Assembly: GCF_003334355.1 (NCBI RefSeq)
Contig: NZ_QOWP01000027.1
DNA from: Escherichia coli
GTDB lineage: Bacteria > Pseudomonadota > Gammaproteobacteria > Enterobacterales > Enterobacteriaceae
Length of the DNA stretch: 54,484 bases
Strand: one strand, 5' to 3'
Under the pieces are notes generated by a model. It was not told where the DNA came from. It saw only the letters and a program-made list of their open reading frames with translations, and made no database searches. Below, piece by piece: positions 13,231 to 47,069 of this stretch. The first letter of the stretch is position 1; every line of letters begins with the position of its first letter. Made by a program: the position numbers and the translations under genes.

Positions 13231-13231
13231 C

Positions 13232-13504: not shown

Positions 13505-13506
13505 AA

Positions 13507-15471: not shown

Positions 15472-15649
15472 GGCTTACTTTCTCTGCTGTAATGGTATGG
15501 GCGTTTTTGTGCACGCAAATCCGGCAGTGACACAAGGTGAGGTATTAAATAGAGAGGGCGTGAAAGGGGCAAATTATTAATAGAGTGAAAAAATAATTAA
15601 ATTATTAAAGGGTGAGATGTCGGGCATCGTCATAAAACATTGCACGAAC

Positions 15650-15735
<86 letters not shown>

Positions 15736-15858
15736 GCTATAACTCATTGTTATTCAACAAATAATATTTTTATTATCGTTTAATTCGAACTTGTTAATCC
15801 CGCCGATGATACGCTTCAGAACATCCTGTTTTCTGTCGCTACTTATATCGTTCACCCT

Positions 15859-16845
15859 ATGTCTGAACTTATTGCAACTGCCGCTTCCAGCATTAACGCT
15901 TTTACTCTGGCAAAGCGTGTCGCCGCCTTTAACGTGCCGGTGCTCATTCAGGGCGAAACCGGTGCGGGCAAAGAGTGCGTGGCAAAATATATTCACACCG
16001 TAGCTTTTGGTGAAAATGATAACGCGCCCTATATCGGCGTGAACTGCGCAGCGATCCCGGAAAATATACTGGAAGCCACCTTATTTGGCTACGACAAAGG
16101 TGCATTTACCGGCGCAATTGCCAGCGTGCCTGGAAAAATGGAACTGGCGAATAACGGCACCTTATTGCTCGATGAAATTGGCGATATGCCGCTGGCATTA
16201 CAGGCCAAAATATTACGCGTATTGCAGGAACAACAGGTTGAGCGATTAGGCAGCAACCGACAAATTAAACTCAATTTTCGCCTGATTGCCTGCACCAATA
16301 AAAACCTTGAGCAGGAAGTCGCCGCCGGGCGTTTTCGTGAAGATCTCTATTATCGTCTGGCGGTTATTCCTATTACCATGCCGCCGCTGCGCGAACGTCT
16401 GAACGATATTATTCCGCTGGCAGAGTCATTTATTAAAAAATACTCCACGGTGCTGGTGAAAAATATCACCCTTTCAGAATCTACCCGCCGGGCGCTGCTG
16501 AATTACCGCTGGCCCGGCAACGTGCGCCAGCTGGAAAACGCCATTCAGCGGGGAATGATCTTGAACCGCGACGGCGTGATTTACCCGGATGTCTTAGGCT
16601 TGCCGGAAACGGACGTTGCCGATCGCAGCGAACTGCAATGGCCTGTTCAGCCCGCCGTACACATTGCCGAAACCAGCGATTTAGGCCAGCACGGACGAAG
16701 CGCCCAGTATCAATATATCGCCGACCTGATGCGTAAATATCAGGGCAACCGCAGCAAAATCGCCGACCTGTTAGGCATTACCCCGCGCGCACTGCGCTAT
16801 CGACTGGCCTCCATGCGCAAGCAAGGTATCGAAGTTTTCTCCTGA
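15859..16845 (+). CDS. lafK: Sigma-54-dependent transcriptional activator (AAA+ plus HTH, no receiver domain)
   Basis: 328 aa; Walker A GETGAGKE about 30 residues from start, GAFTGA-like motif (GYDKGAFTGA), Walker B (LLLDEIGDM), C-terminal Fis-type HTH; in-frame stop at 15781 upstream, so no N-terminal REC domain can be encoded. Confidence 0.88.
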   Translation: MSELIATAASSINAFTLAKRVAAFNVPVLIQGETGAGKECVAKYIHTVAFGENDNAPYIGVNCAAIPENILEATLFGYDKGAFTGAIASVPGKMELANNGTLLLDEIGDMPLALQAKILRVLQEQQVERLGSNRQIKLNFRLIACTNKNLEQEVAAGRFREDLYYRLAVIPITMPPLRERLNDIIPLAESFIKKYSTVLVKNITLSESTRRALLNYRWPGNVRQLENAIQRGMILNRDGVIYPDVLGLPETDVADRSELQWPVQPAVHIAETSDLGQHGRSAQYQYIADLMRKYQGNRSKIADLLGITPRALRYRLASMRKQGIEVFS

Positions 16846-16859
16846 CCCGGAAGTTAAAA

Positions 16860-17201
16860 ATGAGCATTACCACAATCAACAGCACCATGCAGGCGCAAAT
16901 CATGCAGGACGTGCAGCGGATGCAGGCCAACGCCCAGGCACCGGTGCTGCCCGCCATGACCTTCAGTTCCACCGACCCTGACGTTTCGTTTAACCGCATT
17001 ATGAGCGGCGCGCTCGGTCACGTTGACCAGTTCCAGCAGGTGGCGGAGCAGCAGCAAACGGCTATCGACATGGGCAAAAGCGATGACCTGGCAGGTGCGA
17101 TGATCGCCAGCCAGCAGGCGTCGCTCTCTTTCTCCGCGCTGGTGCAGGTGCGCAACAAAATCGCCACCGGGTTTAATGACCTGATGAGTATGTCGATCTA
17201 A
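16860..17201 (+). CDS. lfiE: Flagellar hook-basal body protein, FliE homologue
   Basis: 113 aa, FliE-like size and C-terminal region (…SLSFSALVQVRNKIATGFNDLMSMSI). Confidence 0.87.
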   Translation: MSITTINSTMQAQIMQDVQRMQANAQAPVLPAMTFSSTDPDVSFNRIMSGALGHVDQFQQVAEQQQTAIDMGKSDDLAGAMIASQQASLSFSALVQVRNKIATGFNDLMSMSI

Positions 17202-17205
17202 CCCT

Positions 17206-18852: not shown

Positions 18853-19840
18853 GAGCAACAGCTACCTGGAACAGGCGGCGATCCTGCTGCTGTGTCTGGG
18901 CGAAGAAGCGGCGGCGACGGTGATGCAAAAACTCAGCCGCGAAGAAGTGGTGCGCCTGAGCGAAAACATGGCGCGGCTTTCCGGCGTCAAAACCAGCATG
19001 GCGCGCAAAGTGATCAATAACTTCTTTGATGAGTTCCGCGAACAGAGCGGGATTAACGGCGCATCGCGATCCATGTTGCAGGGCATTCTCAACAAAGCCC
19101 TCGGCACCGAGATCGCCAGCAGCGTGATCAACGGCATCTACGGCGATGAGATCCGCTCGCGGATGGCGCGACTGCAATGGGTTGAACCGCGCCAGTTGGC
19201 GATGCTGATCTCCGAAGAACATCTGCAATTGCAGGCGGTGTTCCTCGCGTTTCTGACGCCGGAAATCTCGGCGGCGGTGCTCTCGTATCTCAACGAATCG
19301 GTGCAAAACGAGATTCTCTACCGGGTGGCGAAACTCAACGACGTCAACCGCGACGTGGTGGATGAACTGGACAGGCTGATCGAACGCGGTCTGTCGGTGC
19401 TCTCTGAACACGGCTCGAAGGTGAAAGGCATCAAACAGGCGGCGGATATCGTCAACCGCTTCCAGGGTAACCAGCAGGTGATCCTCGACCAGATGCGCGA
19501 GCGCGACGAAGAGGTGCTGGAGCAGCTCCAGGATGAGATGTACGACTTCTTTATCCTCAGCCGCCAGAACGAAGAGGTACGTCGACGTCTGCTCGACGAA
19601 GTGCCGATGGAAGACTGGGCGGTGGCGCTGAAAGGCACCGAAGCCCTGTTGCGGCGCTCGATTTACGCGGTAATGCCAAAACGTCAGGTGCAACAACTGG
19701 AAGCGATCACCGCGCGACTGGGGCCGGTGCCGGTCAGCCGTATCGAACAGATCCGCCGCGAAATCATGGGCATCGCCCGTGAACTGGAAGAGGCGGGCGA
19801 AATTCAGCTACAGCTCTTTGCGGAACAGACGGCGGAGTAA
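18830..19840 (+). CDS. lfiG: Flagellar motor switch protein, FliG homologue
   Basis: 336 aa; FliG-like N-terminus (…QAAILLLCLGEEAAATVMQKLSREEV) and C-terminal torque-generating domain. Confidence 0.92.
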   Translation: MSELTTNKSNSYLEQAAILLLCLGEEAAATVMQKLSREEVVRLSENMARLSGVKTSMARKVINNFFDEFREQSGINGASRSMLQGILNKALGTEIASSVINGIYGDEIRSRMARLQWVEPRQLAMLISEEHLQLQAVFLAFLTPEISAAVLSYLNESVQNEILYRVAKLNDVNRDVVDELDRLIERGLSVLSEHGSKVKGIKQAADIVNRFQGNQQVILDQMRERDEEVLEQLQDEMYDFFILSRQNEEVRRRLLDEVPMEDWAVALKGTEALLRRSIYAVMPKRQVQQLEAITARLGPVPVSRIEQIRREIMGIARELEEAGEIQLQLFAEQTAE

Positions 19841-19843
19841 CCC

Positions 19844-20554
19844 ATGACCATTGAAACACTGCGCGGGCGCTATCGCCTGCACCGTTTCCCGCCGCGCCAG
19901 CGTGCGGTGACCGGAGAACCGCTCACCGCCAGCATCAGCGCCGCCGACTACCAGCGCCAGTTGATGGACGGTTTTCAGGAAGGGCTGCAAAAAGGGTTTG
20001 CTCAGGGAATGACGGAAGGTCAGGAACAGTGCTTTAGCGAAGGTCATCAGCAAGGTTTTGCCGAGGGGCGACGCCAGGGCTACACCGAAGGCAGCCTCGC
20101 CGGGCAGCAGGAAGGGCGCAAACAGTTTGTTGAGGCGGCGCAGCCGCTGGAAACAATCACCGGGAAAGTTAACGACTTCCTCGCTCATATCGAACGTAAA
20201 CAGCGGGAAGATTTGCTGCAACTGGTGGAAAAAGTCACCCGCCAGGTGATCCGTTGTGAACTGGCGCTGCAACCCACGCAGTTGCTGGCGCTGGTGGAAG
20301 AGGCGCTGGCGGCCTTCCCGGCGATGCCGGAAACCCTGCAAGTAATGCTGAGCACGGAAGAGTTTAACCGCCTGCGCGACGCGGTGCCGGAAAAGGTCAG
20401 CGAATGGGGGCTGACGCCTTCGCCGGATTTGCCACCGGGCGAATGCCGGGTGATCACCGACAAATCCGAACTGGATATCGGCTGCGAGCATCGCCTTGAA
20501 CAATGCATGACCGCGCTGAAAGAAACACTCACGCCGGAGTCGCAGGGTGAGTGA
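19844..20554 (+). CDS. lfiH: Flagellar export ATPase regulator, FliH homologue
   Basis: 236 aa with Gly/acidic repeat region (GFQEGLQKGFAQGMTEGQEQ…) typical of FliH; position between fliG and fliI homologues. Confidence 0.85.
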   Translation: MTIETLRGRYRLHRFPPRQRAVTGEPLTASISAADYQRQLMDGFQEGLQKGFAQGMTEGQEQCFSEGHQQGFAEGRRQGYTEGSLAGQQEGRKQFVEAAQPLETITGKVNDFLAHIERKQREDLLQLVEKVTRQVIRCELALQPTQLLALVEEALAAFPAMPETLQVMLSTEEFNRLRDAVPEKVSEWGLTPSPDLPPGECRVITDKSELDIGCEHRLEQCMTALKETLTPESQGE

Positions 20555-21884
20555 TTTTTCTGCGTTCGATAACGCCCTGCGCTCGCTGGAGTCGATCCCG
20601 CTGGCCCGCGTCGCCGGGCGGCTGGTGCGCCTTAACGGCATCCTGCTGGAGAGTGTCGGCTGCCCGCTAATGACCGGGCAGCTGTGCCGCATCGAAAGTG
20701 CCAATCACACGCTGATCGACGCGCAGGCCGTGGGCTTTAATCGCGACATCACCTATTTAATGCCGTTTAAACAGCCGGTCGGCCTGATGGCAGGCGCACG
20801 CGTCTTCCCGGAAGAAAAAGCCCACGACATCCTGATAGGCGAAAGCTGGTTAGGCCGCGTGGTGAATGGCCTCGGCGAACCGCTGGATGGCAAAGGCCGC
20901 CTGAACGGCAACGACCTTCTGCCGCCGTTGCCGCCCTCGGTTAATCCCTTAACTCGTCGTTCGGTAGACGAACCGCTGGACGTGGGCGTGAAAGCGATCA
21001 ACGGCCTGCTGACCATCGGCAAAGGCCAGCGCGTCGGACTAATGGCAGGCAGCGGCGTCGGGAAAAGCGTGCTGCTGGGGATGATCACCCGCCAGACCAA
21101 AGCCGATATCGTGGTGGTTGGGCTGATTGGGGAACGCGGGCGCGAAGTGAAAGAGTTTATCGACCACTCGCTGGGCGCGGACGGGCTGGCAAAGTCTATC
21201 GTCGTCGTCGCGCCTGCCGATGAATCGCCGCTGATGCGTCTGAAAGCCACCGAACTGTGCCACTCCATCGCCGCCTGGTTTCGCGACCGCGGGCATCACG
21301 TCTTACTGCTGGTGGATTCCCTGACCCGCTACGCGATGGCGCAGCGGGAAATCGCCCTCTCGCTCGGCGAACCGCCCGCCACCAAAGGTTATCCGCCATC
21401 GGCATTCGGCATGATCCCCAAACTGGTCGAAAGCGCAGGCAACAGCGAAAGCGCGGGATCGATGACCGCCATCTACACCGTGCTGGCGGAAGGTGACGAC
21501 CAGCAAGATCCGATTGTCGACTGCGCGCGCGCGGTGCTGGACGGGCATATCGTATTAACCCGCAAACTGGCGGAAGCGGGGCACTATCCGGCCATTGATA
21601 TCGGCCAGTCGATCAGCCGCTGCATGAACCAGGTCACCAGCCTGGAACATCAGCAATCCGCCCGCGCGTTAAAGCAAAACTATGCCGCCTATATGGAGAT
21701 CAAACCTCTGATCCCGCTCGGCGGCTATGTGGCAGGTGCCGACGCCAGCGTCGACAAAGCGGTGAAAATGTTTCCGGCCATTGAGCGATTTTTGCGCCAG
21801 GAGATGCGCGAACCCGCCTCCCTCGAACTGGTGCAAAGCCGCCTGCAAATTCTCTTTCCTGGTGTCAAAAAGGCAGAACAGTAA
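20547..21884 (+). CDS. lfiI: Flagellum-specific ATP synthase, FliI homologue
   Basis: 445 aa, Walker A GSGVGKSVLLGMI, F1/V1-ATPase-like fold motifs; probable GTG start at 20547 overlapping lfiH end. Confidence 0.93.
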   Translation: MSDFSAFDNALRSLESIPLARVAGRLVRLNGILLESVGCPLMTGQLCRIESANHTLIDAQAVGFNRDITYLMPFKQPVGLMAGARVFPEEKAHDILIGESWLGRVVNGLGEPLDGKGRLNGNDLLPPLPPSVNPLTRRSVDEPLDVGVKAINGLLTIGKGQRVGLMAGSGVGKSVLLGMITRQTKADIVVVGLIGERGREVKEFIDHSLGADGLAKSIVVVAPADESPLMRLKATELCHSIAAWFRDRGHHVLLLVDSLTRYAMAQREIALSLGEPPATKGYPPSAFGMIPKLVESAGNSESAGSMTAIYTVLAEGDDQQDPIVDCARAVLDGHIVLTRKLAEAGHYPAIDIGQSISRCMNQVTSLEHQQSARALKQNYAAYMEIKPLIPLGGYVAGADASVDKAVKMFPAIERFLRQEMREPASLELVQSRLQILFPGVKKAEQ

Positions 21885-21886
21885 CT

Positions 21887-34965: not shown

Positions 34966-35044
34966 GGCACCCGGTTTACGGAACTTAAGAATCCCCAACT
35001 TTACGCCGCTTTTAACCGGCACGATTTACCGGTAAGGATCCAAC

Positions 35045-38417: not shown

Positions 38418-39260
38418 TCAGCATTTTTGCACAGTATTTAACAACTTCTCTAAATTCTGATACATCGCGCTATTAATATCGCTGTTCTGCCAGCCTTCCA
38501 CATTAAAAGTTAATTGCCAGCTACCATTGCACTGGTTGCGCAGAACAATATCACTTTCCAGTCGGTTACGAACATATTTATAATAGGTTGTCATTGTCAT
38601 ATTATGCGCTGACAATAAATTATCGAGTTTGTCTTTCCCTGGTGCGAGGGTTTGTGACAGTAACGGTACGGAACTATTTTCTTTTCCAGAACTAAGGTGA
38701 AATATTTTTATTCTTGGACTGTTAATTGACTCTTTTACCAGTTGCGGGGCATCAGGTGTACTTTTCAAGTGTGAATGCCCCACGGTCGAGCCAATAAATA
38801 TAACAACCGCGGTCAAGGCTAACCCCATCAGTCCTTTATGTTTTTTTCTAACAGGCACAGGCGGTGTTGTCGAAGATATCTCTTCTGGCACAATTTCCTG
38901 TATCTGGTTGGTAATAATCAGCGCTTCCGCTGGCGATGACTCCGGCAAAGACACATACTCTTTATTGCACAGGTAACCTTTTTTCGGGATGGTTTTAATA
39001 ATGTTCTGTTGTTTGCCATCATCGTCGATAGCAACGCGCAACGCATGGATTGCCGTCGGCAGGCTGTTACCGCCGACAATGCGGTTCTTCCATACTTCGG
39101 CACATAAATAAGATCGCGATAAAACCACATCGGCATTTTTTGCTAATGTTTCCAGCAAAATAAAATGGTATTCGCCGAGACGACGTGTTTCACCCGTTTC
39201 GCAATGTATTAAGGCATTAAGCGACGGGTCCATCCGCCAGTTGTTGATAATAATACTCAT
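38418..39260 (-). CDS. lafZ: ToxR/CadC-like membrane-anchored winged-helix transcriptional regulator
   Basis: 280 aa; N-terminal OmpR/PhoB-type DNA-binding region, one predicted TM helix (GLMGLALTAVVIFIGSTVG), C-terminal periplasmic domain; noticeably AT-rich; divergent from lafA. Confidence 0.75.
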   Translation of the reverse strand: MSIIINNWRMDPSLNALIHCETGETRRLGEYHFILLETLAKNADVVLSRSYLCAEVWKNRIVGGNSLPTAIHALRVAIDDDGKQQNIIKTIPKKGYLCNKEYVSLPESSPAEALIITNQIQEIVPEEISSTTPPVPVRKKHKGLMGLALTAVVIFIGSTVGHSHLKSTPDAPQLVKESINSPRIKIFHLSSGKENSSVPLLSQTLAPGKDKLDNLLSAHNMTMTTYYKYVRNRLESDIVLRNQCNGSWQLTFNVEGWQNSDINSAMYQNLEKLLNTVQKC

Positions 39261-39745
39261 AGTTGAGTTTACCTTAGCAAGGGATAAATGTTACCTGATA
39301 GTGCTTTGCATAAAGCACAGTCTTATACGTCCCTGAGAAGATGATTTTTCTGCGTGATAATTAATATTTTATGGTAATAGGATTATTCTTAATCACTATA
39401 TGGCGTGGAAATGTAACGAAATGACAGGATAGGTACAATAGCCAAATGTGTACTATTTGCAACGCAATGTAAATTTTGGCATCAGTACATTGAGAAGAAA
39501 ACGCGTTAATTGATGGTAATCTTAACTATATCAAGCGTTTGATAAAGACATATTTTGATACCTGGCCATGTGGCAGATATTGCTAATAATCCTTTTATCT
39601 GAATTTAAACTCTGCTTTTTTTAGCTAAAAGTGGCATCAGATAAACCGCGCTGAAATTTTTTTAACGGCGGTTTTAAGTTTGCTCCCGAGGTGTCGTTTT
39701 TACAGGGTATCGAAACGAAAACGATTAATCCCAAGGAGCAGTATC

Positions 39746-40660
39746 ATGTTATCTATTAACACCAATAACGCCTCAATGGCCGCCGTTAATGCAATCAGCA
39801 AAAGCAGCTCTTCTCTGTCTACATCTATGGAACGCCTGGCGACAGGTAACCGGATTAACTCTTCTGCCGATGACGCAGCGGGCAAACAAATTGCTAACCG
39901 TCTGACTGCACAGTCAAGCGGTATGGGCGTGGCGCTGAGCAATATCAATGATGCCACCGCGATGCTGCAAACCGCCGACAGCATGTTCGATGAAATGTCT
40001 GACGTGCTGGGTCGTATGAAAGACCTGTCAACTCAGGCAGCGAACGGCACCTACAGCGACGACGACCTGCAGGCGATGCAGGACGAATACGACGAACTGG
40101 GTCAGCAGATGTCTGACATGCTGCAAAACACCACCTACGGCGGCACCAACCTGTTCGGTGTTTCCGGCACCAGCAACACCGGTACTGACGGCCTGTTCCA
40201 GAGCGCGGTAACCTTCCAGGTGGGCGCGGAATCTTCCGACACCATGACCGTGAACATTTCAAGCCAACTGAATACCCTGGTGACGGATCTTTCTGCTATC
40301 AGCAACTCCTTCAGTGCGGATCAGGCAGACACCACGGGTACTGCAGGCGTGTCTGGCGGTACTGAGCTGACTGCGTCTGGCTCGGCTAACCAGATGATTA
40401 CCAGCATTTCTACCGCGATGGATGACGTTTCTCAGATTCAGTCCAAGCTGGGTGCGTCTATTAACCGTCTGAACGACACTGCCAACAACCTGACCAGCAT
40501 GCAGGACAACACCGAAGTTGCTATCGGTAACATCATGGATACCGACTACGCGACGGAAGCGTCCAACATGACCAAACAGCAGGTGCTGATGCAGACCGGC
40601 ATCACCATGCTGAAACAGTCCAACAGCATGTCCAGCATGGTTTCCAGCCTGCTGCAGTAA
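39746..40660 (+). CDS. lafA: Lateral flagellin
   Basis: 304 aa from ATG 39746 with AAGGAG RBS; flagellin N-terminal domain (MLSINTNNASMAAVNAISK…LATGNRINSSADDAAGKQIANRLT…) and C-terminal domain (…VLMQTGITMLKQSNSMSSMVSSLLQ); short Ser/Thr/Gly-rich central region. Confidence 0.93.
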   Translation: MLSINTNNASMAAVNAISKSSSSLSTSMERLATGNRINSSADDAAGKQIANRLTAQSSGMGVALSNINDATAMLQTADSMFDEMSDVLGRMKDLSTQAANGTYSDDDLQAMQDEYDELGQQMSDMLQNTTYGGTNLFGVSGTSNTGTDGLFQSAVTFQVGAESSDTMTVNISSQLNTLVTDLSAISNSFSADQADTTGTAGVSGGTELTASGSANQMITSISTAMDDVSQIQSKLGASINRLNDTANNLTSMQDNTEVAIGNIMDTDYATEASNMTKQQVLMQTGITMLKQSNSMSSMVSSLLQ

Positions 40661-40669
40661 TGGCGGACT

Positions 40670-40773
<104 letters not shown>

Positions 40774-40791
40774 TGCGTTTGTCATCAGTCT

Positions 40792-40824
40792 CAACACCGC
40801 CTGCGGGCGGTGTTGTGCTTTCTG
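40792..40824 (+). terminator. Candidate intrinsic terminator after lafA
   Basis: Perfect 10-bp GC-rich inverted repeat caacaccgcc-tgcg-ggcggtgttg followed by tgctttctg. Confidence 0.4.
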
Positions 40825-40903
40825 CGGCAGGCGTTTTTCCGCTAAAGCGGAAGCGTTCTTTCCGCCCATTTTTCAATCTATTGATTCTTCACATAAAAAA
40901 TAT

Positions 40904-40918
40904 TGGCACGCCTTTTGC
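40904..40918 (+). promoter_or_regulatory. Candidate sigma-54 (-24/-12) promoter for lafB operon
   Basis: TGGCACgccttTTGCc: exact TGGCAC-N5-TTGC spacing, about 33 nt upstream of lafB ATG. Confidence 0.55.
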
Positions 40919-40950
40919 CAATAACCTGACATCGTTATTCGGAGTCATCA

Positions 40951-42267
40951 ATGATCAACCCAAGAACCATTGCGCAAGAAATCGCCTATGCCGACGTTGC
41001 CACTCAGGCGGCAAACTTGCAGGAAAAGCAAACGGAGCTGGATGCTGAAAGCAGCGGCCTGGACTCGCTCAGCTCAGCGTTGAGCGATTTCCAGAGCGCC
41101 GTTGACGCGCTGAACAGCGATACCGACGGCCCGGTGACTTTTGCCGCCACCAGCAATAATGACTCGGCGACCGTTTCCGCCAATTCCCAGGCGCAGGCGG
41201 GAAGCTACTCATTTTTCGTTGAGCAACTGGCGCAGGGGCAGCAGACCACATTCAGTATGGGCGACGACGCCTTTTCCGCCACCGGCACCTTCGAACTGAC
41301 GATGGGCGACAGCACCATGGATATCGATCTGTCGGCGGCAGATCAGAACGGTGACGGCGATGGTTTTATCGACGCCAGCGAGCTGGTGAATGCGATTAAC
41401 GACTCCGATGACAATCCAGGCGTGTCGGCGGCACTGGTAAAAACCGACGGCACCACCACGATTATGCTCACCTCCGATAGCACCGGGGCGCAGAGCGCGT
41501 TTTCGGTGAGCGTAACGGGGCATGATGCCAGCAACGATAGCACCAGCGCGCCCGTTGCCACGGATGTTTCCTCCGCTCAGGACGCGATTATTCATCTCGG
41601 TAGCGCCACAGGGCCTGCGATCACCAACAGCAGCAATACATTTGATGATGTGATCCCCGGCGTCACCATGACTTTTACCGAAGTCAGCGATTCTGACAGC
41701 GATCTCACCACCTTTAATATCAGCGAAGATTCCAGCGCCAGCCAGGAGAAAGTACAGACCTTTGTCGATGCCTATAACACCTTGATTGATACGGTTGATT
41801 CGCTGACCACTCACGGTGATGACAGTACCAGCGCCGGGGTATTTGCAGGCGACGCCGGGCTCAGTTCACTGGCGAACCAGCTCGATGACATCGCCCATGC
41901 CAGCTACAACGGCGTGTCGATTGTTGACTATGGCATCACCCTCGATTCTCACGGCCACTTACAGATTGACTCCGACCAGTTCAACGACGAAATGGCGAAA
42001 AATCCTGACGGTCTGACCTCTATTTTCGTTGGCGACAACAGCATGGTGGCGCAGATGGACGACCTGATTAACACCTACACGGACTCCAGCAACGGCATCA
42101 TCACCCTGCGCCAGCAGAACATTGACGATCAGATGAGCAAAATTCAGGACGAAGGCGATCAGCTTACCGATACCTATAACGCCAACTACGACCGTTATCT
42201 GGAGGAGTACACCAACACGCTGGTTGAGGTGTACACCATGAAAGCCAGCATGGCGGCATTCGCGTAA
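40951..42267 (+). CDS. lafB: Flagellar filament cap protein, FliD homologue
   Basis: 438 aa; FliD-like N-terminal coiled coil and C-terminal domain; ATG 40951. Confidence 0.9.
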   Translation: MINPRTIAQEIAYADVATQAANLQEKQTELDAESSGLDSLSSALSDFQSAVDALNSDTDGPVTFAATSNNDSATVSANSQAQAGSYSFFVEQLAQGQQTTFSMGDDAFSATGTFELTMGDSTMDIDLSAADQNGDGDGFIDASELVNAINDSDDNPGVSAALVKTDGTTTIMLTSDSTGAQSAFSVSVTGHDASNDSTSAPVATDVSSAQDAIIHLGSATGPAITNSSNTFDDVIPGVTMTFTEVSDSDSDLTTFNISEDSSASQEKVQTFVDAYNTLIDTVDSLTTHGDDSTSAGVFAGDAGLSSLANQLDDIAHASYNGVSIVDYGITLDSHGHLQIDSDQFNDEMAKNPDGLTSIFVGDNSMVAQMDDLINTYTDSSNGIITLRQQNIDDQMSKIQDEGDQLTDTYNANYDRYLEEYTNTLVEVYTMKASMAAFA

Positions 42268-42289
42268 CTCAGAAGGAATATCCCTAAAG

Positions 42290-42682
42290 ATGTACCAAGT
42301 ACAGGATGGCTATTCGCAATATAAAGAGATCGATCTCGCGGCGCGTACTGCGGCGGCATCGCCTCTGGAACTGGTGCTGGTGCTGTTTTCTGGCCTGATG
42401 GACGAGCTGGAACGCGCCAAAAGCCATATTGAAGGGCGGCGTTTCGAGAAGAAAGCCCAGAGCATCAATAAATGCATCGACATTCTCAATGCGCTCACCA
42501 GTTCGTTGGAGTTTGAAACCGGCGGCGAGCTGGTGGTCAACCTTTCGCGCCTCTATGACCACTGCGTTTACCGATTGTATGAGGCCAGCGGCGAACTGTC
42601 GGCAGAGAAAATCGATGAAGTGATGCTGATCTTAAGCAACCTGCGCGAAGGCTGGGAAGGGCTTTCGGGCAAGCTGGGTTAA
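42290..42682 (+). CDS. lafC: Flagellin-specific chaperone, FliS homologue
   Basis: 130 aa with FliS-like four-helix core (…ELVLVLFSGLMDELERAKSHIE…CIDILNALTSSLEFETGGELVVNLSRLYDHCVYRL…). Confidence 0.9.
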   Translation: MYQVQDGYSQYKEIDLAARTAAASPLELVLVLFSGLMDELERAKSHIEGRRFEKKAQSINKCIDILNALTSSLEFETGGELVVNLSRLYDHCVYRLYEASGELSAEKIDEVMLILSNLREGWEGLSGKLG

Positions 42683-42686
42683 GACG

Positions 42687-42998
42687 ATGGATAAACAATG
42701 CAGGCAACTTTTCGCACTGGTCGAGGCGATGAATGAAGCCCTCGACAAGCAACGCTGGCGACGCCTTCCGGCACTGCATCAGCAGTTGATGCGCCAGTTT
42801 CACGATTACGCGGCGGCGGAAACCGATGCGGCGCAGTTGGATGCAGTGAAAGCGCGACTTTATGACGCGTTTAACGCCCTGATTAAACGGCGCGAGCAGC
42901 GCACAGAAGTGTTGAAGGCGCGTATGGAACAGCATCAGCGGCATCAGGAAGGCGTACTGGCCTACTCAATTGTTAATTTACTTTCGGAGAAGTCATGA
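42687..42998 (+). CDS. lafD: FliT-like export chaperone/regulator
   Basis: 103-aa helical protein immediately after fliS homologue. Confidence 0.65.
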   Translation: MDKQCRQLFALVEAMNEALDKQRWRRLPALHQQLMRQFHDYAAAETDAAQLDAVKARLYDAFNALIKRREQRTEVLKARMEQHQRHQEGVLAYSIVNLLSEKS

Positions 42999-44056
42999 AT
43001 CCGGCATTGCTTGCCACGCTCGGAACGCTTGCGGAAACCGCTTCGTTGAAGGCGGATATTTTACCGCCGGTGAGCGGTGAAAACGCGCCCGCGTTTACCC
43101 TGCCGAAAATGGCGGTCGCGGCGGTGGCGGAGCGCGTTCATAGCGCTAAAACCAGTCAGCAACAGGCGACGCGCCCGCAGGAGAACGATCCGGTGGCGAT
43201 GCAGGCGCTAATGGCGCTGTTACTTCCACAACCTGCCGCGCCGCATCAGGACACGCCGCAGCCGCGAAACGTCGCAACATCGCCGGTTATCCAGCAATTG
43301 ACGAAAGCGGTGGTGCAAAACGCGCCGCAACGCCCGACGCAACAGCAGGAACTCACGCCGTTGCCGCCGCAGTTGCAGGAACTGATCAGTCAGTTGCCGC
43401 AGGAGAAACCCGAACAGCAGGCCAGACTGGCGACTTACGCCAGTGAAGATTTACATGCCATTGCGTCGACGCAGCCGCGCGTCTCAACACAGCCAGCTCG
43501 CCCGAAACCTGAACTAACCCGTGTGACCGCGCGCCCGCAGGTCGAGCGTAAAACGGAAAAAGTGCCGGACAGCGAACCGGTTATTGCGCGTGCGGTGTTG
43601 CAGGTTAAGACGCCGGAGCTGGTCAGCGATCATCAGGAGATTGTCGCCAAACCCGTCACGCTTTCGATGGACGAACTGGGCGAAAAACTGACGACGCTGT
43701 TGAAAGATCAGATCCACTTTCAGCTCAACAAACAACAGCAGATCTCCACCATCCGTCTCGATCCACCGTCGCTTGGCAAGCTCGAGATCGCCGTACAACT
43801 CGACAACGGCAAACTGATGGTGCACATCGGCGCGAACCAAAGTGAAGTTTGCCGCGCGTTACAGCAGTTTAGCGACGATCTCCGCCAGCATCTGACGGCG
43901 CAAAATTTTATGGAGGTGAACGTACAGGTTTCCTCCGAAGGGCAGTCGCAGCAACAACAACAGTCGGGCCATCAGCAGGAAGAGGTGAGTGCTGCCTTAC
44001 AGCTTGATGATGCGCCTCAATTTCAACAGAACGAATCCGTTTTGATCAAAGTGTAA
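42995..44056 (+). CDS. lafE: Hook-length control protein, FliK-like
   Basis: 353 aa; Pro/Gln-rich central region and conserved FliK C-terminal domain (…IRLDPPSLGKLEIAVQLDNGKLMVHIGANQSEV…); start overlaps lafD stop. Confidence 0.8.
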   Translation: MNPALLATLGTLAETASLKADILPPVSGENAPAFTLPKMAVAAVAERVHSAKTSQQQATRPQENDPVAMQALMALLLPQPAAPHQDTPQPRNVATSPVIQQLTKAVVQNAPQRPTQQQELTPLPPQLQELISQLPQEKPEQQARLATYASEDLHAIASTQPRVSTQPARPKPELTRVTARPQVERKTEKVPDSEPVIARAVLQVKTPELVSDHQEIVAKPVTLSMDELGEKLTTLLKDQIHFQLNKQQQISTIRLDPPSLGKLEIAVQLDNGKLMVHIGANQSEVCRALQQFSDDLRQHLTAQNFMEVNVQVSSEGQSQQQQQSGHQQEEVSAALQLDDAPQFQQNESVLIKV

Positions 44057-44063
44057 AGGCAAT

Positions 44064-44531
44064 ATGAAGAAAATCGTGGTGGCGGGCGTGGTCAGCGCCG
44101 TTCTGGCGTTGGTGGTGGGGGCCGGAGCTGGATGGGGTGTCTGGCATCATTATGCCGGAAAAGGAAAACCGACTGCCGCCGCGCAGACGGAAACGGTGGA
44201 AACCCTGGATGAGAGCAAAAGCGTGTTTGTGACGTTGCCGGAAACCATTGTCACGCTGCATGACAATAACGGCGCGGACCATTATTTGTCGGCGGAATTA
44301 GTGATGGTGGTCGCCAGTGACAAAGAAGCGGAAAAAATAAAACATCAGGAGCCGCTGTATCAAAGTATTGCGGTTGAATGCCTGACGGAAATGAAATTTG
44401 AAGATTTGCGTGGCATGAAAATATCCGCCATCCGCAAACTCATTTCTGACGCGTTAAAGAAAGATCTTCAGCGTCGCAAAATGAGCGCACCGTATAAGGA
44501 TTTGCTGGTGAAAAAAGTGGTCTTCCAGTAA
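44064..44531 (+). CDS. lafF: Flagellar basal-body-associated protein, FliL homologue
   Basis: 155 aa, single N-terminal TM helix (IVVAGVVSAVLALVVGAGAGW) plus periplasmic FliL-like domain. Confidence 0.85.
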   Translation: MKKIVVAGVVSAVLALVVGAGAGWGVWHHYAGKGKPTAAAQTETVETLDESKSVFVTLPETIVTLHDNNGADHYLSAELVMVVASDKEAEKIKHQEPLYQSIAVECLTEMKFEDLRGMKISAIRKLISDALKKDLQRRKMSAPYKDLLVKKVVFQ

Positions 44532-44550
44532 TCACCAGGCGGATATAAAT

Positions 44551-45267
44551 ATGCTACAGGATGTATTCGAGTCGGAAGAATTTGCTGCCGCGCCGGTATT
44601 AACCCCGCAGCAGGAGAGCCACTACTTGCAGGCCTATTTACCGTTGGTGCGTAAAGTGGTGCGGCAACTTGCCCCGCAGTGTAATTGCATTATTGATCGT
44701 CAGGATATGGAACAAACGGCGTTAATGGGGCTGCTTAATGCCATCCGCCGCTACGGGCTGCCGGACGAAGGTTTTGCGGGCTATGCCGTGCACCGTATTC
44801 GCGGCGCGATCCTGGATGAGCTGCGCGCTCTCGACTGGCGACCGCGCCAGCTGCGACAGAAATATCATCAGATGAAAGATCTGATTCGCGAAACGCGCAA
44901 AAAACTGGGGCACGAACCGGAGTGGTCAGAACTGGCCGTGGAAGGGATCTCGCATGAAGATTATCTCGAATATCAGCAACTGGAAGGGGCGGAAACGCTC
45001 GCCAGCCTGGACGAACTGCTGAACAGCGAAGGGCCAGGCATTCCGCTTGCTGGCCGGGAGCTGGAAGATCAGTTTGTCACTCAGCAAATGCTGCAACAGG
45101 CGCTTTCACAATTAAGCGAAAAAGAGCAACTGATCCTCTCCATGTATTACCAGCATGAGATGAATCTCAAAGAGATTGCGCTGGTATTAGGGCTAACCGA
45201 GGCCCGAATTTGTCAACTGAATAAACAGATCGCGCAGAAAATTCGTGATTTTGTCTATCCGAATTAA
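44551..45267 (+). CDS. lafS: Flagellar sigma-28 factor (FliA family)
   Basis: 238 aa; sigma-70 family regions 2 and 4 (…LILSMYYQHEMNLKEIALVLGLTEARICQLNKQIAQKIR). Confidence 0.9.
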   Translation: MLQDVFESEEFAAAPVLTPQQESHYLQAYLPLVRKVVRQLAPQCNCIIDRQDMEQTALMGLLNAIRRYGLPDEGFAGYAVHRIRGAILDELRALDWRPRQLRQKYHQMKDLIRETRKKLGHEPEWSELAVEGISHEDYLEYQQLEGAETLASLDELLNSEGPGIPLAGRELEDQFVTQQMLQQALSQLSEKEQLILSMYYQHEMNLKEIALVLGLTEARICQLNKQIAQKIRDFVYPN

Positions 45268-45279
45268 AGTGAAGAAATC

Positions 45280-46143
45280 ATGCAAAAAATATTAGGTTTA
45301 CTGGTGGTGCTCGGCTGCGTATTTGGCGGTTATTTTGAAGCGGGCGGGCAATTAGTGGCTATCTGGCAACCGGCGGAAATGATCATTATTTTGGGTGCCG
45401 GTTTCGGGGCGATGATTATTGGTAACCCGAAACATGTGCTGAAAGAGATTGCCCATCAAATTAAAGGCGTGATCAGTAAAAAACAGCTCGGGCCGGAGTT
45501 TCAGCGCCAGCTATTAATGTGCCTGTATGAGTTACTCGAAATGGTGCAAAACGGTGGTCTGCGCATGCTGGATCAACATATTGAGCAACCGGAAGAGAGC
45601 ACCATTTTCCAGAAATACCCGCTGGTGTTAACCCAGAAGCGGCTGGTGACCTTTATTGCCGATAACTTTCGCCTGATGGCGATGGGTAAAATCGACGCCC
45701 ATGAACTGGAAGGCATTCTCGATCAGGAACTGGACACCGCGGAAGAGTCGCTGCTAACGCCGTCGCGCTCGCTGCAACGTACCGCCGAAGCGATGCCGGG
45801 GTTTGGCATTTGTGCGGCGGTGTTGGGCATCATCATCACCATGCAGTCGATTGACGGCTCTATCGCCCTGATTGGCCTGAAAGTGGCGGCAGCGCTGGTG
45901 GGGACATTTTTAGGCGTCTTTATCTGCTACTGCCTGATGGACCCACTCGCCAACGCCATGGAACAACAGGCGCGGGCAGAACATTCTTTGCTGGAATGCG
46001 TGCGTACCGTGCTGGTGGCGCAGGCAGGCGGCAAACCGACGCTGCTGGCGGTGGACGCCGGGCGTAAGCTACTGCATCTGGCGTCCAAACCGACCTTCGC
46101 CAACCTCGACGCGTGGGTGAATGCGATGCTGGAGCAAGAATAA
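45280..46143 (+). CDS. lafT: Flagellar stator protein, MotA homologue
   Basis: 287 aa, four TM helices, MotA/TolQ/ExbB-like. Confidence 0.92.
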   Translation: MQKILGLLVVLGCVFGGYFEAGGQLVAIWQPAEMIIILGAGFGAMIIGNPKHVLKEIAHQIKGVISKKQLGPEFQRQLLMCLYELLEMVQNGGLRMLDQHIEQPEESTIFQKYPLVLTQKRLVTFIADNFRLMAMGKIDAHELEGILDQELDTAEESLLTPSRSLQRTAEAMPGFGICAAVLGIIITMQSIDGSIALIGLKVAAALVGTFLGVFICYCLMDPLANAMEQQARAEHSLLECVRTVLVAQAGGKPTLLAVDAGRKLLHLASKPTFANLDAWVNAMLEQE

Positions 46144-46145
46144 GC

Positions 46146-47069
46146 ATGAGAAAGACGGGTAACCGCCGCGATCGTGGGGCAAAAACCACCATCGTCCGGC
46201 GGCAGATCAAAAAGAATCATGCCGGGCACCACGGCGGGGCGTGGAAGGTGGCGTTCGCCGACTTTACTTTGGCAATGATGGCGCTGTTTATGACGCTGTG
46301 GATTGTCAACAGCGTCAGTAAATCCGAGCGTGAAAGCATTATCGCCGCGCTGCACGGGCAGTCGATTTTTAACGGTGGTGGGCTGTCGCCGTTAAATAAA
46401 ATCAGCCCGTCTCATCCGCCAAAACCTGCCACCGTGGCGGTGCCGGAAGAGACGGAGAAAAAAGCGCGCGACGTCAACGAGAAAACGGCGCTGCTGAAGA
46501 AGAAATCCGCCACCGAGCTTGGCGAGCTGGCAACCAGTATCAACACAATTGCCCGTGATGCGCATATGGAAGCGAATCTGGAGATGGAGATTGTTCCCCA
46601 GGGATTGCGCGTGCTGATTAAAGATGACCAGAATCGCAATATGTTCGAACGCGGCAGCGCGCAGATTATGCCGTTCTTTAAAACGCTGCTGGTGGAGCTC
46701 GCGCCAGTGTTCGACTCGCTCGATAACAAAATTATTATTACCGGGCATACCGATGCGATGGCCTACAAAAACAATATCTACAACAACTGGAACCTTTCGG
46801 GTGACCGCGCGCTTTCGGCTCGTCGGGTGCTGGAAGAGGCCGGAATGCCGGAAGATAAAGTGATGCAGGTAAGCGCAATGGCGGACCAGATGCTGCTGGA
46901 CGCGAAGAATCCGCAAAGTGCGGGTAATCGGCGCATCGAGATTATGGTGCTGACCAAAAGTGCGTCCGATACGCTGTATCAATACTTTGGTCAGCATGGG
47001 GATAAAGTGGTGCAGCCGCTGGTGCAAAAGCTGGATAAGCAGCAGGTGCTTTCGCAGCGAACGCGCTAA
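46146..47069 (+). CDS. lafU: Flagellar stator protein, MotB homologue (OmpA-like C-terminal domain)
   Basis: Start ATG 46146 (MRKTGNRRDRG…) just after lafT stop; TM helix (FADFTLAMMALFMTLWIV) and OmpA-type peptidoglycan-binding domain (…ITGHTDAMAY…NWNLSGDRALSARRVLEE…NRRIEI). Confidence 0.9.
   Translation: MRKTGNRRDRGAKTTIVRRQIKKNHAGHHGGAWKVAFADFTLAMMALFMTLWIVNSVSKSERESIIAALHGQSIFNGGGLSPLNKISPSHPPKPATVAVPEETEKKARDVNEKTALLKKKSATELGELATSINTIARDAHMEANLEMEIVPQGLRVLIKDDQNRNMFERGSAQIMPFFKTLLVELAPVFDSLDNKIIITGHTDAMAYKNNIYNNWNLSGDRALSARRVLEEAGMPEDKVMQVSAMADQMLLDAKNPQSAGNRRIEIMVLTKSASDTLYQYFGQHGDKVVQPLVQKLDKQQVLSQRTR

What the first reader, a model, noticed from the sequence alone, without database searches (positions are those of the whole stretch)
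40904..40918. Second sigma-54 promoter motif upstream of lafB (filament cap operon)
TGGCACgccttTTGCc is an exact TGGCAC-N5-TTGC match about 33 nt upstream of lafB. It implies that lafB-lafC-lafD-lafE-lafF-lafS-lafT-lafU, including the sigma-28 gene, is LafK/sigma-54 dependent, giving a simple two-tier cascade (sigma-54 to sigma-28 to flagellin). I could not find a comparable motif upstream of lafA, which is therefore more likely sigma-28 driven.
Basis: seen in the sequence. Interest (0 to 1): 0.45.

Follow-up and report, generated by a model that had tools for sequence, protein, structure and literature searches.

The report
Sigma-54 promoter of the lafB operon
The motif is very probably a real sigma-54 promoter, with a conserved upstream activator site, driving the filament-cap, sigma-28 and motor operon of the E. 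coli second (Flag-2, lateral-type) flagellar system; the logic is already known from Vibrio, so it is sound but ordinary.

Summary
TGGCACGCCTTTTGC lies at 40904-40918 (+), 33 nt before the lafB ATG, and is the only exact TGGCAC-N5-TTGC match in the window.

The window is an intact E. coli Flag-2 locus. Motif counts alone are not significant. The case rests on placement and conservation:
- **Placement.** The three best sigma-54-like sites in the 54 kb are all intergenic, correctly oriented and 31-36 nt before Flag-2 start codons (lafB, lfgB, and a lysine-N-methylase gene).
- **Conservation across genera.** TGGCAY-N5-TTGCY sits 25-78 nt before lafB in 37 of 40 gammaproteobacterial lateral-flagellar loci; three Vibrio have TTGAT at -12. 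Thirty-nine betaproteobacterial fliD loci show nothing comparable.
- **Conservation within E. coli.** The hexamers are intact in all eight alleles read, while the flanks differ by about 8%.
- **Activator site.** A 19-bp palindrome, GCGGAAr-N5-yTTCCGC, sits at a fixed distance upstream of all three promoters and of lfgB promoters in six other genera. It is a candidate binding site for LafK, which the locus encodes.

lafA carries a conserved sigma-28-like promoter instead. No expression data exist here.

The parts
40792..40815 (+). lafA intrinsic terminator hairpin (CAACACCGCC-TGCG-GGCGGTGTTG, then TGCTTTCTG)
   Evidence: Terminator scan and RNA fold. The GGCGGTGTTGTGCTTTC block recurs upstream of the promoter in other Enterobacterales. 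It separates lafA from lafB, so lafB needs its own promoter.
40824..40842 (.). Distal copy of the palindrome (GCGGCAGGCGTTTTTCCGC), a candidate LafK enhancer site. It starts 80 nt before the T of TGGCAC.
   Evidence: Two mismatches to GCGGAAA-N5-TTTCCGC. It is the best-scoring copy in four close relatives. An O111 strain carries a 23-bp duplication that adds one more unit.
40847..40865 (.). Proximal copy of the palindrome (GCGGAAGCGTTCTTTCCGC), a candidate LafK enhancer site. It starts 57 nt before the T of TGGCAC, so its centre is about -74 from the predicted transcription start.
   Evidence: The best palindrome score is at least 12 of 14 in 33 of 41 lafB promoters, against 3 of 1923 control windows. 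The offset clusters at -57 (plus or minus 2) in Enterobacterales.
40874..40886 (-). IHF-consensus site (AATCAATAGATTG = WATCAANNNNTTR) between the enhancer and the -24 element
   Evidence: Exact consensus match (8 in the window against 1.66 expected, so weak on its own). A yAyTGAtt block is conserved at the same place in other genera.
40904..40919 (+). Sigma-54 -24/-12 promoter element TGGCACGCCTTTTGCC (GG at 40905-40906, GC at 40917-40918)
   Evidence: a top-scoring site of the window, tied with the lfgB and methylase sites. Also (cross-genus; hexamers intact in every E. coli allele read).
40929..40931 (+). Predicted transcription start, about 11-13 nt after the C of the -12 GC (inferred, not measured)
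   Evidence: Inference from standard sigma-54 promoter geometry. It gives a 5' untranslated region of about 20 nt containing GGAG at 40941-40944.
40951..47069 (+). lafB-lafC-lafD-lafE-lafF-lafS-lafT-lafU: filament cap, FliS and FliT-like chaperones, hook-length control, FliL, sigma-28, MotA, MotB-like
   Evidence: RefSeq annotation of an identical E. coli record. Gaps run from a 4-nt overlap to 22 nt. No intergenic terminator-like site.
44551..45267 (+). lafS, a FliA/WhiG-family sigma-28 gene inside the operon
15859..16845 (+). lafK, a sigma-54 enhancer-binding protein with no receiver domain
   Evidence: Pfam Sigma54_activat (1.3e-63), AAA_lid_14 and HTH_8. GAFTGA and Walker A motifs are visible in the translation. 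No sigma-54 site lies upstream of it.
28083..28098 (+). Sigma-54 promoter of lfgB (TGGCATGGCGATTGCT), 36 nt before the ATG, with the palindrome at 28015-28033 (offset -68)
   Evidence: The lfgB promoters of six other genera have the motif plus the palindrome at -68 to -70.
26424..26439 (-). Third sigma-54 promoter (CGGCACGCTTATTGCA), 34 nt before the lysine-N-methylase gene, with a perfect palindrome at 26478-26496 (offset -57)
39674..39700 (+). Sigma-28 (LafS)-type promoter of lafA: TTAAGTTT-N11-GTCGTTTT, 45 nt before the ATG
   Evidence: Conserved block in lafA upstream regions of 33 loci from Enterobacterales, Vibrio and Photobacterium and a window scan.

Best explanation
The motif is the -24/-12 element of a sigma-54-dependent promoter, P_lafB. 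It transcribes lafBCDEFSTU of the Flag-2 (lateral-type) flagellar locus.

Proposed mechanism:
1. RNA polymerase carrying sigma-54 binds TGGCAC-N5-TTGC as a closed complex.
2. LafK, the activator encoded in the locus, has an AAA+ domain with GAFTGA and a Fis-type helix-turn-helix but no receiver domain. It binds one or two copies of the palindrome GCGGAAr-N5-yTTCCGC, centred about 74 and 97 bp upstream of the start.
3. An IHF-type bend at about -50 probably helps LafK reach the polymerase. ATP hydrolysis then opens the promoter.
4. The transcript starts about 20 nt before the lafB ATG and includes lafS (sigma-28).
5. LafS then drives the lafA flagellin promoter (TTAAGTTT-N11-GTCGTTTT), and probably lfgMN and lfgKL.

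Shown here: the motif, its placement, its conservation, the LafK domain architecture, the shared palindrome and the lafA promoter motif. Inferred: sigma-54 and LafK binding, the IHF role, the transcription start and operon continuity.
For: **Identity of the locus.** The window is 100% identical to E. coli PSS-12 in the region compared. There the downstream gene is annotated fliD and is followed by fliS, a hook-length control gene, a FliL-family gene, a FliA/WhiG sigma factor, motA and lafU.

**Placement.** The three best matches to the extended sigma-54 consensus on both strands of 54 kb are all intergenic, correctly oriented and 31-36 nt before Flag-2 start codons. By my own rough estimate, about 3% of positions qualify per site, so roughly 4e-5 for all three.

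**Conservation across genera.**
- Of 80 fliD/lafB loci, 40 are gammaproteobacterial lateral-type loci. In 37 of these, TGGCAY-N5-TTGCY lies 25-78 nt before the start.
- They include Escherichia, Pseudocitrobacter, Citrobacter, Phytobacter, Leminorella, Enterobacter, Pseudescherichia, Dryocola, Rahnella, Rosenbergiella, Tatumella, Pseudomonas, Serpens, Vibrio and Photobacterium.
- LafB identity falls to 30-37% and the spacer bases vary.
- The other three, all Vibrio, have TGGCAT-N5-TTGAT.
- Thirty-nine betaproteobacterial loci and one unclassified MAG have nothing comparable.

**Conservation within E. coli.**
- All 1276 genomes that carry the region hold the 35-mer around the motif at 90% identity or better, and 930 hold it at 99% or better.
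- Only 24 reach 99% or better over the surrounding 231 bp.
- In the eight alleles read, no change touches TGGCAC or TTGC.

**Need for a separate promoter.** A conserved lafA terminator hairpin lies upstream of the motif.

**Activator.** LafK has the Sigma54_activat, AAA-lid and HTH_8 domains and a GAFTGA motif.

**Enhancer.** The palindrome scores at least 12 of 14 in 33 of 41 lafB promoters, against 3 of 1923 control windows. It lies at -57 in Enterobacterales, -68 in Vibrio and -80 for the second copy. In the window it also precedes P_lfgB (-68) and the methylase promoter (-57, a perfect match). It precedes lfgB promoters in six other genera at -68 to -70.

**Literature.**
- In V. parahaemolyticus, LafK with sigma-54 activates class II genes that include the sigma-28 gene (PMC4481668, PMC3658858, PMC11242183).
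- Its lafB promoter has the predicted site TAGGCACGTATCTTGCGAT, and lafBCD transcripts fall in an rpoN mutant (PMC9817140).
- The upstream-site, looping and IHF mechanism is standard for sigma-54 promoters (PMC7057263).
Against: - No transcript, transcription-start or binding data exist for this locus, so everything rests on sequence and comparison.
- The count of good motifs in the window is not itself significant.
- The base after TTGC is C rather than the consensus A or T; most orthologues have T.
- In V. parahaemolyticus, purified RpoN did not shift the lafB promoter fragment in a gel assay (PMC9817140). That assay was described as using RpoN protein rather than holoenzyme.
- In Plesiomonas shigelloides, which lacks LafK, the fliD-to-lafU cluster is positively regulated by the lateral sigma-28 (PMC11242183). 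Sigma-28 input to this operon in some lineages is therefore real.
- The IHF match is a short consensus that occurs 8 times in the window.
- Whether Flag-2 is expressed at all in E. coli is unknown; the literature calls its function not fully understood (PMC11420993).
Confidence: 0.85

Rival explanations
1. The motif is a chance match with no function. lafB would be transcribed by read-through from lafA or from another promoter.
For: An exact match is expected 0.28 times per window, and 27 of 100 shuffles have at least one. Sites scoring at least 7 of 8 are not significantly enriched.
Against: - Position and sequence are conserved across at least 15 genera while the spacer varies, and the motif is absent from betaproteobacterial fliD loci.
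- The hexamers are intact in E. coli alleles whose flanks diverge.
- A conserved terminator lies between lafA and the motif.
Confidence: 0.02
2. The operon is driven, or co-driven, by the lateral sigma-28 (LafS) from an overlapping promoter. GCCAATAA at 40917-40924 resembles the FliA -10 element GCCGATAA, which would give positive autoregulation as reported for Plesiomonas.
For: The -10-like element matches 7 of 8. FliA_L positively regulates the fliD-to-lafU cluster in P. shigelloides (PMC11242183).
Against: - The nearest TAAA lies 19 nt, not 15 nt, upstream of the -10-like element. The best -35 alignment matches only 4-5 of 8.
- GCCAATAA is confined to the E. coli clade; other genera have TTGCT followed by unrelated bases.
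- The LafS-type motif defined from lafA (TTAAGTTT-N11-GTCGTTTT) has no match of 12 of 16 or better before lafB or lafT.
Confidence: 0.08
3. The functional unit is the inverted repeat ATTGGCA-N7-TGCCAAT (40902-40922). It would be an operator for a dimeric regulator, or a terminator on the minus strand.
For: The terminator scan lists TATTGGCAAAAGGCGTGCCAATA followed by TTTTTTAT on the minus strand.
Against: - No minus-strand gene converges on this site.
- The symmetry is lost outside the E. coli and Pseudocitrobacter clade, while TGGCAY-N5-TTGCY persists.
Confidence: 0.03
4. The site binds sigma-54 holoenzyme but is never activated. The site would be intact but the system cryptic in E. coli, as in strains with decayed Flag-2 loci.
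For: Flag-2 function is not established in E. coli, and many loci carry deletions or mutations (PMC6993521, PMC11420993).
Against: - All Flag-2 genes in the matching RefSeq record, including lafK, are annotated as intact.
- The promoter core is conserved more strongly than its flanks across 1276 genomes, which argues for continued selection.
Confidence: 0.1

Closest known systems
Vibrio parahaemolyticus lateral flagellar class II operon fliDSTKLA_L-motAB_L (lafB, VPA1550 onwards), under LafK and sigma-54
   Same: - Same gene order, with the filament cap first and the sigma-28 gene and stator genes inside.
- lafA lies immediately upstream as a separate unit.
- A GGCAC-N5-TTGC site is reported before lafB, and lafBCD transcripts fall in an rpoN mutant (PMC9817140).
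- The hierarchy is LafK and sigma-54, then sigma-28, then late genes (PMC4481668, PMC3658858).
- Related Vibrio and Photobacterium loci show the same palindrome, AT-rich block and -24/-12 layout.
   Different: - LafB is only about 33-34% identical.
- The palindrome lies one helical turn further upstream in Vibrio (-68 against -57).
- The 5' untranslated region is about 20 nt in E. coli, against a motif-to-start distance of about 78 nt in the Vibrio loci read.
- The V. parahaemolyticus locus is split over two chromosomal regions (PMC3658858).
- The E. coli promoter has not been tested experimentally.
Classical enhancer-dependent sigma-54 promoters with IHF-assisted looping (nifH with NifA, Pu with XylR, pspA with PspF)
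   Same: - A -24 GG and a -12 GC separated by 10 nt.
- An upstream palindromic activator site.
- An IHF-consensus site between them.
- An activator with an AAA+ domain carrying GAFTGA and an HTH_8 domain.
- LafK lacks a regulatory domain, like PspF and HrpR/S (PMC3162934, PMC7057263).
   Different: - The enhancer is closer, centred about 74 and 97 bp from the predicted start against the usual 100-150 bp (PMC7057263).
- The palindrome sequence differs from the sites I recall for other activators. That comparison is from memory and was not tested here.
- How LafK activity is controlled without a sensory domain is unknown.
Aeromonas hydrophila and Plesiomonas shigelloides lateral flagellar hierarchies
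   Same: Similar lateral gene clusters, with a lafA gene followed by a lafB-to-lafU block and a sigma-28-dependent flagellin.
   Different: - In A. hydrophila many clusters are transcribed independently of LafK (PMC4481668).
- P. shigelloides has no lafK, and its fliD-to-lafU cluster responds to FliA_L (PMC11242183).
- Neither species was among the loci retrieved here, so their lafB promoters were not examined.

Membership tests
Sigma-54 (RpoN)-dependent promoter | GG and GC dinucleotides separated by exactly 10 nt (-24/-12), within the extended consensus TGGCAC-N5-TTGCW | tested here: met
   TGGCACGCCTTTTGCC at 40904-40919. Both invariant dinucleotides are present, plus 7 of 8 further consensus positions; only the last base (C instead of A or T) departs.
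Sigma-54 (RpoN)-dependent promoter | Intergenic, oriented towards a gene and a short distance upstream of it | tested here: met
   The motif lies in the 290-bp lafA-lafB intergenic region, 33 nt before the lafB ATG and downstream of the lafA terminator.
Sigma-54 (RpoN)-dependent promoter | Evolutionary conservation of the -24/-12 bases relative to the spacer and flanks | tested here: met
   Of 40 gammaproteobacterial lateral-type loci, 37 keep TGGCAY-N5-TTGCY with a variable spacer and 3 have TTGAT at -12. Information content peaks at TGGCA and TTGCT. The hexamers are intact in every E. coli allele read.
Sigma-54 (RpoN)-dependent promoter | A cognate enhancer-binding protein with a GAFTGA motif is available | tested here: met
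   lafK at 15859-16845 has Sigma54_activat (1.3e-63), AAA_lid_14 and HTH_8, and GAFTGA is present.
Sigma-54 (RpoN)-dependent promoter | An upstream activator site bound by that protein | tested here: inconclusive
   The palindrome is conserved, sits at a fixed distance, and is shared by three promoters in the window and by lfgB promoters in six other genera. Binding by LafK has not been shown.
Sigma-54 (RpoN)-dependent promoter | Transcription depends on rpoN and starts about 12 nt after the GC | not testable with these tools
   This needs expression or 5'-end data. The only related data are for V. parahaemolyticus, where lafBCD transcripts fall in an rpoN mutant (PMC9817140).
Lateral-flagellar class II operon of the V. 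parahaemolyticus type (fliDSTKLA_L-motAB_L) | Gene content and order: fliD, fliS, fliT-like, fliK, fliL, fliA, motA, motB-like, preceded by a separate lafA | tested here: met
   RefSeq annotation of an identical record. lafA lies upstream of lafB on the same strand in the lateral-type loci where it could be located.
Lateral-flagellar class II operon of the V. parahaemolyticus type (fliDSTKLA_L-motAB_L) | The flagellin gene is under a sigma-28-type promoter, not a sigma-54 promoter | tested here: met
   TTAAGTTT-N11-GTCGTTTT at 39674-39700 is conserved across genera. No sigma-54-like site lies before lafA. This is sequence evidence only.
Sigma-28 (FliA)-dependent promoter, as an alternative for the lafB site | TAAA-N15-GCCGATAA, or the LafS variant TTAAGTTT-N11-GTCGTTTT, with correct spacing | tested here: not met
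   Only the -10-like GCCAATAA is present. The -35 element and spacing are wrong, the element is not conserved outside the E. coli clade, and there is no LafS-type match.

The most novel reading that the evidence does not exclude
The 19-bp palindrome GCGGAAr-N5-yTTCCGC is the LafK enhancer, which I did not find described in the papers I could search. It sits at helically phased distances from the -24 element: -57, -68 and -80.

If so, it defines a compact LafK regulon of three operons in E. coli Flag-2: lfgB onwards, lafB-U, and a lysine-N-methylase gene with a glycosyltransferase gene downstream of it. Candidate flagellin-modification genes would then be switched on at the middle tier of the cascade, before flagellin itself. 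The site would be conserved from Vibrio to Enterobacterales.
Probability: 0.55. Interest if true: 0.4.

Novelty: new member of a known kind. Interest (0 to 1): 0.3.

Why it matters
About a quarter of complete E. coli genomes (1276 of 5426) carry this region, yet the function and regulation of Flag-2 in Enterobacterales are described as not fully understood.

The work gives a concrete, testable promoter map:
- three sigma-54 promoters that share a candidate LafK site;
- three LafS-type sigma-28 promoters;
- lafK itself outside both classes.

This map says which mutations and reporters would show whether, and when, the system is switched on. It does not change what is understood about sigma-54 or about flagellar cascades. 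The logic is the one already established for Vibrio parahaemolyticus lateral flagella.

Tried and rejected
- **E. coli FliA matrix.** Scanning with TAAAGTTT-N11-GCCGATAA found nothing convincing before lafA. The lafA promoter appeared only after comparing orthologous upstream regions, because its -10 element is GTCGTTTT.
- **Enrichment by count.** Sigma-54-like sites are not more numerous than in shuffles, so I dropped that argument in favour of placement and conservation.
- **Primary papers.** Ren et al. 2005 (E. coli Flag-2) and Stewart and McCarter 2003 (V. parahaemolyticus lateral genes) are not in the held library. I therefore could not check whether this exact E. coli site was already listed. 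Searches combining Flag-2 with sigma-54 terms surfaced no paper mapping these promoters among those listed.
- **Rfam.** The intergenic region matches only REP-derived families (ES036/CssrF at 40705-40747, above its gathering score, and weak naRNA4 matches), all upstream of the terminator. Nothing overlaps the promoter.
- **The ATTGGCA-N7-TGCCAAT symmetry and the minus-strand terminator call.** Rejected because the symmetry is not conserved and no minus-strand gene converges there.
- **Sigma-70-like hit at 40926-40955.** It matches 9 of 12 and overlaps the start codon, and such hits are no more frequent than in shuffles.
- **IHF consensus.** An exact match exists only at P_lafB, not at the other two sigma-54 promoters.

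Full report
**1. What the window is**

Bases 39600-42300 are 100% identical to the chromosome of E. coli strain PSS-12. A region covering at least 80% of that stretch occurs in 1270 of 5426 complete E. coli genomes.

The RefSeq annotation of that record shows an intact Flag-2 (lateral-type) flagellar locus between yafL/rayT and dinB. In window coordinates it contains:
- lfhA to lfiM, 9242-15471 (-);
- lafK then lfiE-J, 15859-22321 (+);
- a nucleotidyltransferase gene;
- a glycosyltransferase gene and a lysine-N-methylase gene (-);
- lfgN, lfgM and lfgA (-);
- lfgB to lfgL, then lafW (+);
- lafZ (-);
- lafA, 39746-40660 (+);
- lafB to lafU, 40951-47069 (+).

None of these genes is flagged as a pseudogene.

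**2. The observation**

TGGCACGCCTTTTGC lies at 40904-40918 on the + strand, followed by C. It is the only exact TGGCAC-N5-TTGC match in the window. Its last base is 33 nt before the lafB ATG at 40951, and GGAG lies at 40941-40944.

The match is not remarkable by count. 0.28 exact matches are expected, and 27 of 100 shuffles hold one. With the invariant GG and GC fixed and eight further consensus positions scored, three sites reach 7 of 8 against 0.87 expected, and 6 of 100 dinucleotide shuffles do as well.

**3. Why it is nevertheless real**

*Placement.* The three top-scoring sites on both strands of 54 kb are all intergenic and point at a Flag-2 gene, with the motif ending 31-36 nt before its start codon:
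- lafB, 40904;
- lfgB, 28083, TGGCATGGCGATTGCT;
- the lysine-N-methylase gene, 26439-26424 on the minus strand, CGGCACGCTTATTGCA.

Every lower-scoring site but one lies inside a coding region.

*A separate promoter is needed.* The lafA-lafB gap of 290 bp contains REP-derived elements (Rfam ES036 and naRNA4 matches). It then contains a strong hairpin, CAACACCGCC-TGCG-GGCGGTGTTG, followed by a T-rich tail at 40792-40815. This terminator block recurs in other Enterobacterales. lafA is therefore a separate transcription unit.

*Conservation across genera.* I aligned 20 LafB/FliD relatives and retrieved 80 loci from one-genome-per-species contigs.
- Forty of the loci are gammaproteobacterial lateral-type loci. 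In 37 of them, a site of the form TGGCAY-N5-TTGCY lies 25-78 nt before the start.
- They come from Escherichia, Pseudocitrobacter, Citrobacter, Phytobacter, Leminorella, Enterobacter, Pseudescherichia, Dryocola, Rahnella, Rosenbergiella, Tatumella, Pseudomonas, Serpens, Vibrio and Photobacterium.
- LafB identity falls to 30-37%, and the five spacer bases vary freely.
- Three Vibrio species keep TGGCAT but have TTGAT at -12.
- The remaining 40 loci are 39 betaproteobacterial loci (Massilia, Janthinobacterium, Azoarcus and others) and one unclassified MAG. Their best sites are weak and lie 17-275 nt away at unrelated positions. This works as a negative control.

*Conservation within E. coli.*
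- All 1276 genomes that hold the region carry the 35-mer at 40896-40930 at 90% identity or better, and 930 carry it at 99% or better.
- Over the surrounding 231 bp, only 24 genomes reach 99% or better and 1192 fall at 90-95%.
- In the eight alleles I read, including the most divergent, substitutions fall in the spacer and flanks and never in TGGCAC or TTGC.

**4. Promoter architecture**

*Candidate enhancer.* Upstream of the motif lie two copies of a 19-bp palindrome:
- GCGGAAGCGTTCTTTCCGC at 40847-40865;
- GCGGCAGGCGTTTTTCCGC at 40824-40842.

A search for GCGGAAA-N5-TTTCCGC with up to three mismatches gives 13 hits against 4.7 expected. None of 100 shuffles reaches 13, although several of the 13 are REP look-alikes. 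The four best-placed hits lie upstream of the three sigma-54 promoters, including a perfect match at 26478-26496.

The start of the palindrome lies 57 nt before the T of the -24 hexamer at P_lafB and at the methylase promoter. It lies 68 nt before at P_lfgB, and 80 nt before for the second P_lafB copy.

Across 41 lafB promoters:
- The best palindrome score is at least 12 of 14 in 33, against 3 of 1923 control windows taken from the same sequences.
- The offsets cluster at -57 (plus or minus 2) in Enterobacterales, -68 in Vibrio and -100 to -112 in Pseudomonas and Serpens.

As an independent test, I fetched lfgB promoters from six further genera. All have TGGCAY-N5-TTGCY and the same palindrome at -68 to -70.

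At P_lfgB in E. coli the palindrome lies inside the first codons of the divergent lfgA gene, so it cannot be a terminator there. In one O111 strain, a 23-bp duplication adds a further unit at P_lafB.

*Candidate IHF site.* Between the palindrome and the -24 element, P_lafB has an exact IHF consensus, AATCAATAGATTG, at 40874-40886 on the minus strand. An AT-rich yAyTGAtt block is conserved at this place across genera. The short consensus occurs 8 times in the window, so it is weak evidence on its own.

*The activator.* LafK (328 aa) consists of a sigma-54 interaction domain that starts at residue 6, an AAA lid and a Fis-type helix-turn-helix. It has GAFTGA and Walker A motifs and no receiver domain. 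Francke et al. place LafK with PspF and HrpR/S in the same class of activators (PMC3162934). No sigma-54-like site precedes lafK. Only a weak sigma-70-like match lies there.

**5. The rest of the cascade**

*The operon.* The eight genes from lafB to lafU are separated by gaps ranging from a 4-nt overlap to 22 nt. No terminator-like site lies in any intergenic gap. A single operon containing lafS (a FliA/WhiG-family sigma factor) is therefore the simplest reading. Internal promoters are not excluded.

*lafA.* The E. coli FliA matrix found nothing before lafA. Stacking the lafA upstream regions of 33 loci showed a conserved block, TTAAGTTT-N11-GTCGTTTT, at 39674-39700, 45 nt before the ATG. Variants are TTAATTTy...GTCGCTTT in other Enterobacterales and TTAATCCT...CCGCCTCT in Vibrio.

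This looks like a sigma-28-type promoter with a different -10 element. Weaker versions in the right orientation precede:
- lfgM (TAAAGTTT-N12-ACCGCTTT, 38 nt before the start);
- lfgK (TTAAGAAT-N12-GCCGCTTT, 32 nt before the start).

None precedes lafB or lafT.

*Agreement with published data.* These are the clusters found to depend on the lateral sigma-28 in Plesiomonas by RNA-seq: fliC_L, flgMN_L and flgKL_L. That study also lists the fliD-to-lafU cluster as dependent on it (PMC11242183). Plesiomonas has no LafK, so sigma-28 feedback on lafB-U elsewhere remains possible.

**6. Comparison with what is known**

The hierarchy of LafK and sigma-54, then class II genes including fliA_L, then sigma-28 late genes, is the published model for V. 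parahaemolyticus lateral flagella (summarised in PMC4481668, PMC3658858, PMC11242183 and PMC3930126). A recent study of that species:
- lists a predicted RpoN site before lafB (TAGGCACGTATCTTGCGAT);
- shows that lafBCD transcripts fall in an rpoN mutant;
- reports that purified RpoN did not shift the lafB fragment (PMC9817140).

The E. coli site is therefore the orthologue of a known promoter class.

I could not open Ren et al. 2005 or Stewart and McCarter 2003. I therefore cannot say whether this exact E. coli site has already been printed. The comparative Flag-2 papers I could read mention LafK only as a predicted regulator and map no promoters. I did not find the palindrome described in any paper I could search.

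**7. Rivals**

- **Chance.** Excluded by the conservation.
- **An overlapping sigma-28 promoter (GCCAATAA).** It has the wrong -35 spacing and is confined to the E. coli clade.
- **The ATTGGCA-N7-TGCCAAT symmetry.** This is also confined to that clade.
- **A cryptic, never-activated promoter.** This cannot be excluded without expression data. It is hard to reconcile with stronger conservation of the core than of the flanks.

**8. Verdict**

This is a sound annotation of an orthologous promoter, not a new mechanism.

Modest added value comes from the shared candidate LafK site, the third sigma-54 promoter before the methylase gene, and the LafS-type -10 variant.

Interest 0.3; novelty: new member of a known kind.

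Noticed in passing
window 26424-26439 (-), with the palindrome at 26478-26496: A third sigma-54 promoter (CGGCACGCTTATTGCA) lies 34 nt before the lysine-N-methylase (FliB-like) gene. A glycosyltransferase gene follows downstream on the same strand. A perfect GCGGAAA-N5-TTTCCGC palindrome sits at offset -57. Candidate flagellin-modification genes may therefore belong to the LafK tier.
   Followed up: partly
window 39674-39700 (+); 27301-27274 (-); 34985-35012 (+): LafS-type sigma-28 promoters lie before lafA, lfgM and lfgK. Their -10 element is GTCGyTTT or GCCGCTTT rather than the E. coli FliA element GCCGATAA. The lafA version is conserved from Enterobacterales to Vibrio. This suggests that the lateral and primary sigma-28 factors use different promoters.
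   Followed up: partly
window 40650-40800; also 5018, 8347, 15711, 22757; rayT at 8521-9018: REP/BIME elements sit in several Flag-2 intergenic gaps. The one after lafA matches Rfam ES036 (CssrF) above its gathering score. The REP content of the lafA-lafB gap differs between E. coli alleles, with about 85 bp present or absent. The REP-associated transposase gene rayT flanks the locus.
   Followed up: partly
L006 (E. coli O111:H8 SF4-1), alignment A1 columns 272-294: A 23-bp tandem duplication in the P_lafB upstream region adds one more palindrome unit. Its 23-bp length equals the spacing between the two palindrome copies at P_lafB.
   Followed up: no
L031, L034, L035 (Vibrio mediterranei, V. 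qingdaonensis, V. methylphosphonaticus), about 90 nt before lafB: These three Vibrio species have TGGCAT-N5-TTGAT, so the normally invariant C of the -12 GC is an A. The palindrome and the -24 element are intact.
   Followed up: partly
window 15472-15858 (the lfiM-lafK divergent region): lafK and the lfiM-lfhA operon have no sigma-54 or LafS-type site. There is only a weak sigma-70-like match (TTGTTA-18-TATTAT at 15747-15776) and a REP copy. Whatever switches on lafK is the unknown top of the cascade. The membrane regulator gene lafZ (38418-39260, minus strand) next to lafA is a candidate that I did not examine.
   Followed up: no
L003 (E. coli N96), 304-579: RefSeq annotates a 91-aa hypothetical protein across the lafA-lafB intergenic region, covering the REP elements, the terminator and the promoter. 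This is very likely a spurious gene call.
   Followed up: no
E. coli genome collection: Two of the 1276 copies of the P_lafB region are on records typed as plasmids rather than chromosomes.
   Followed up: no
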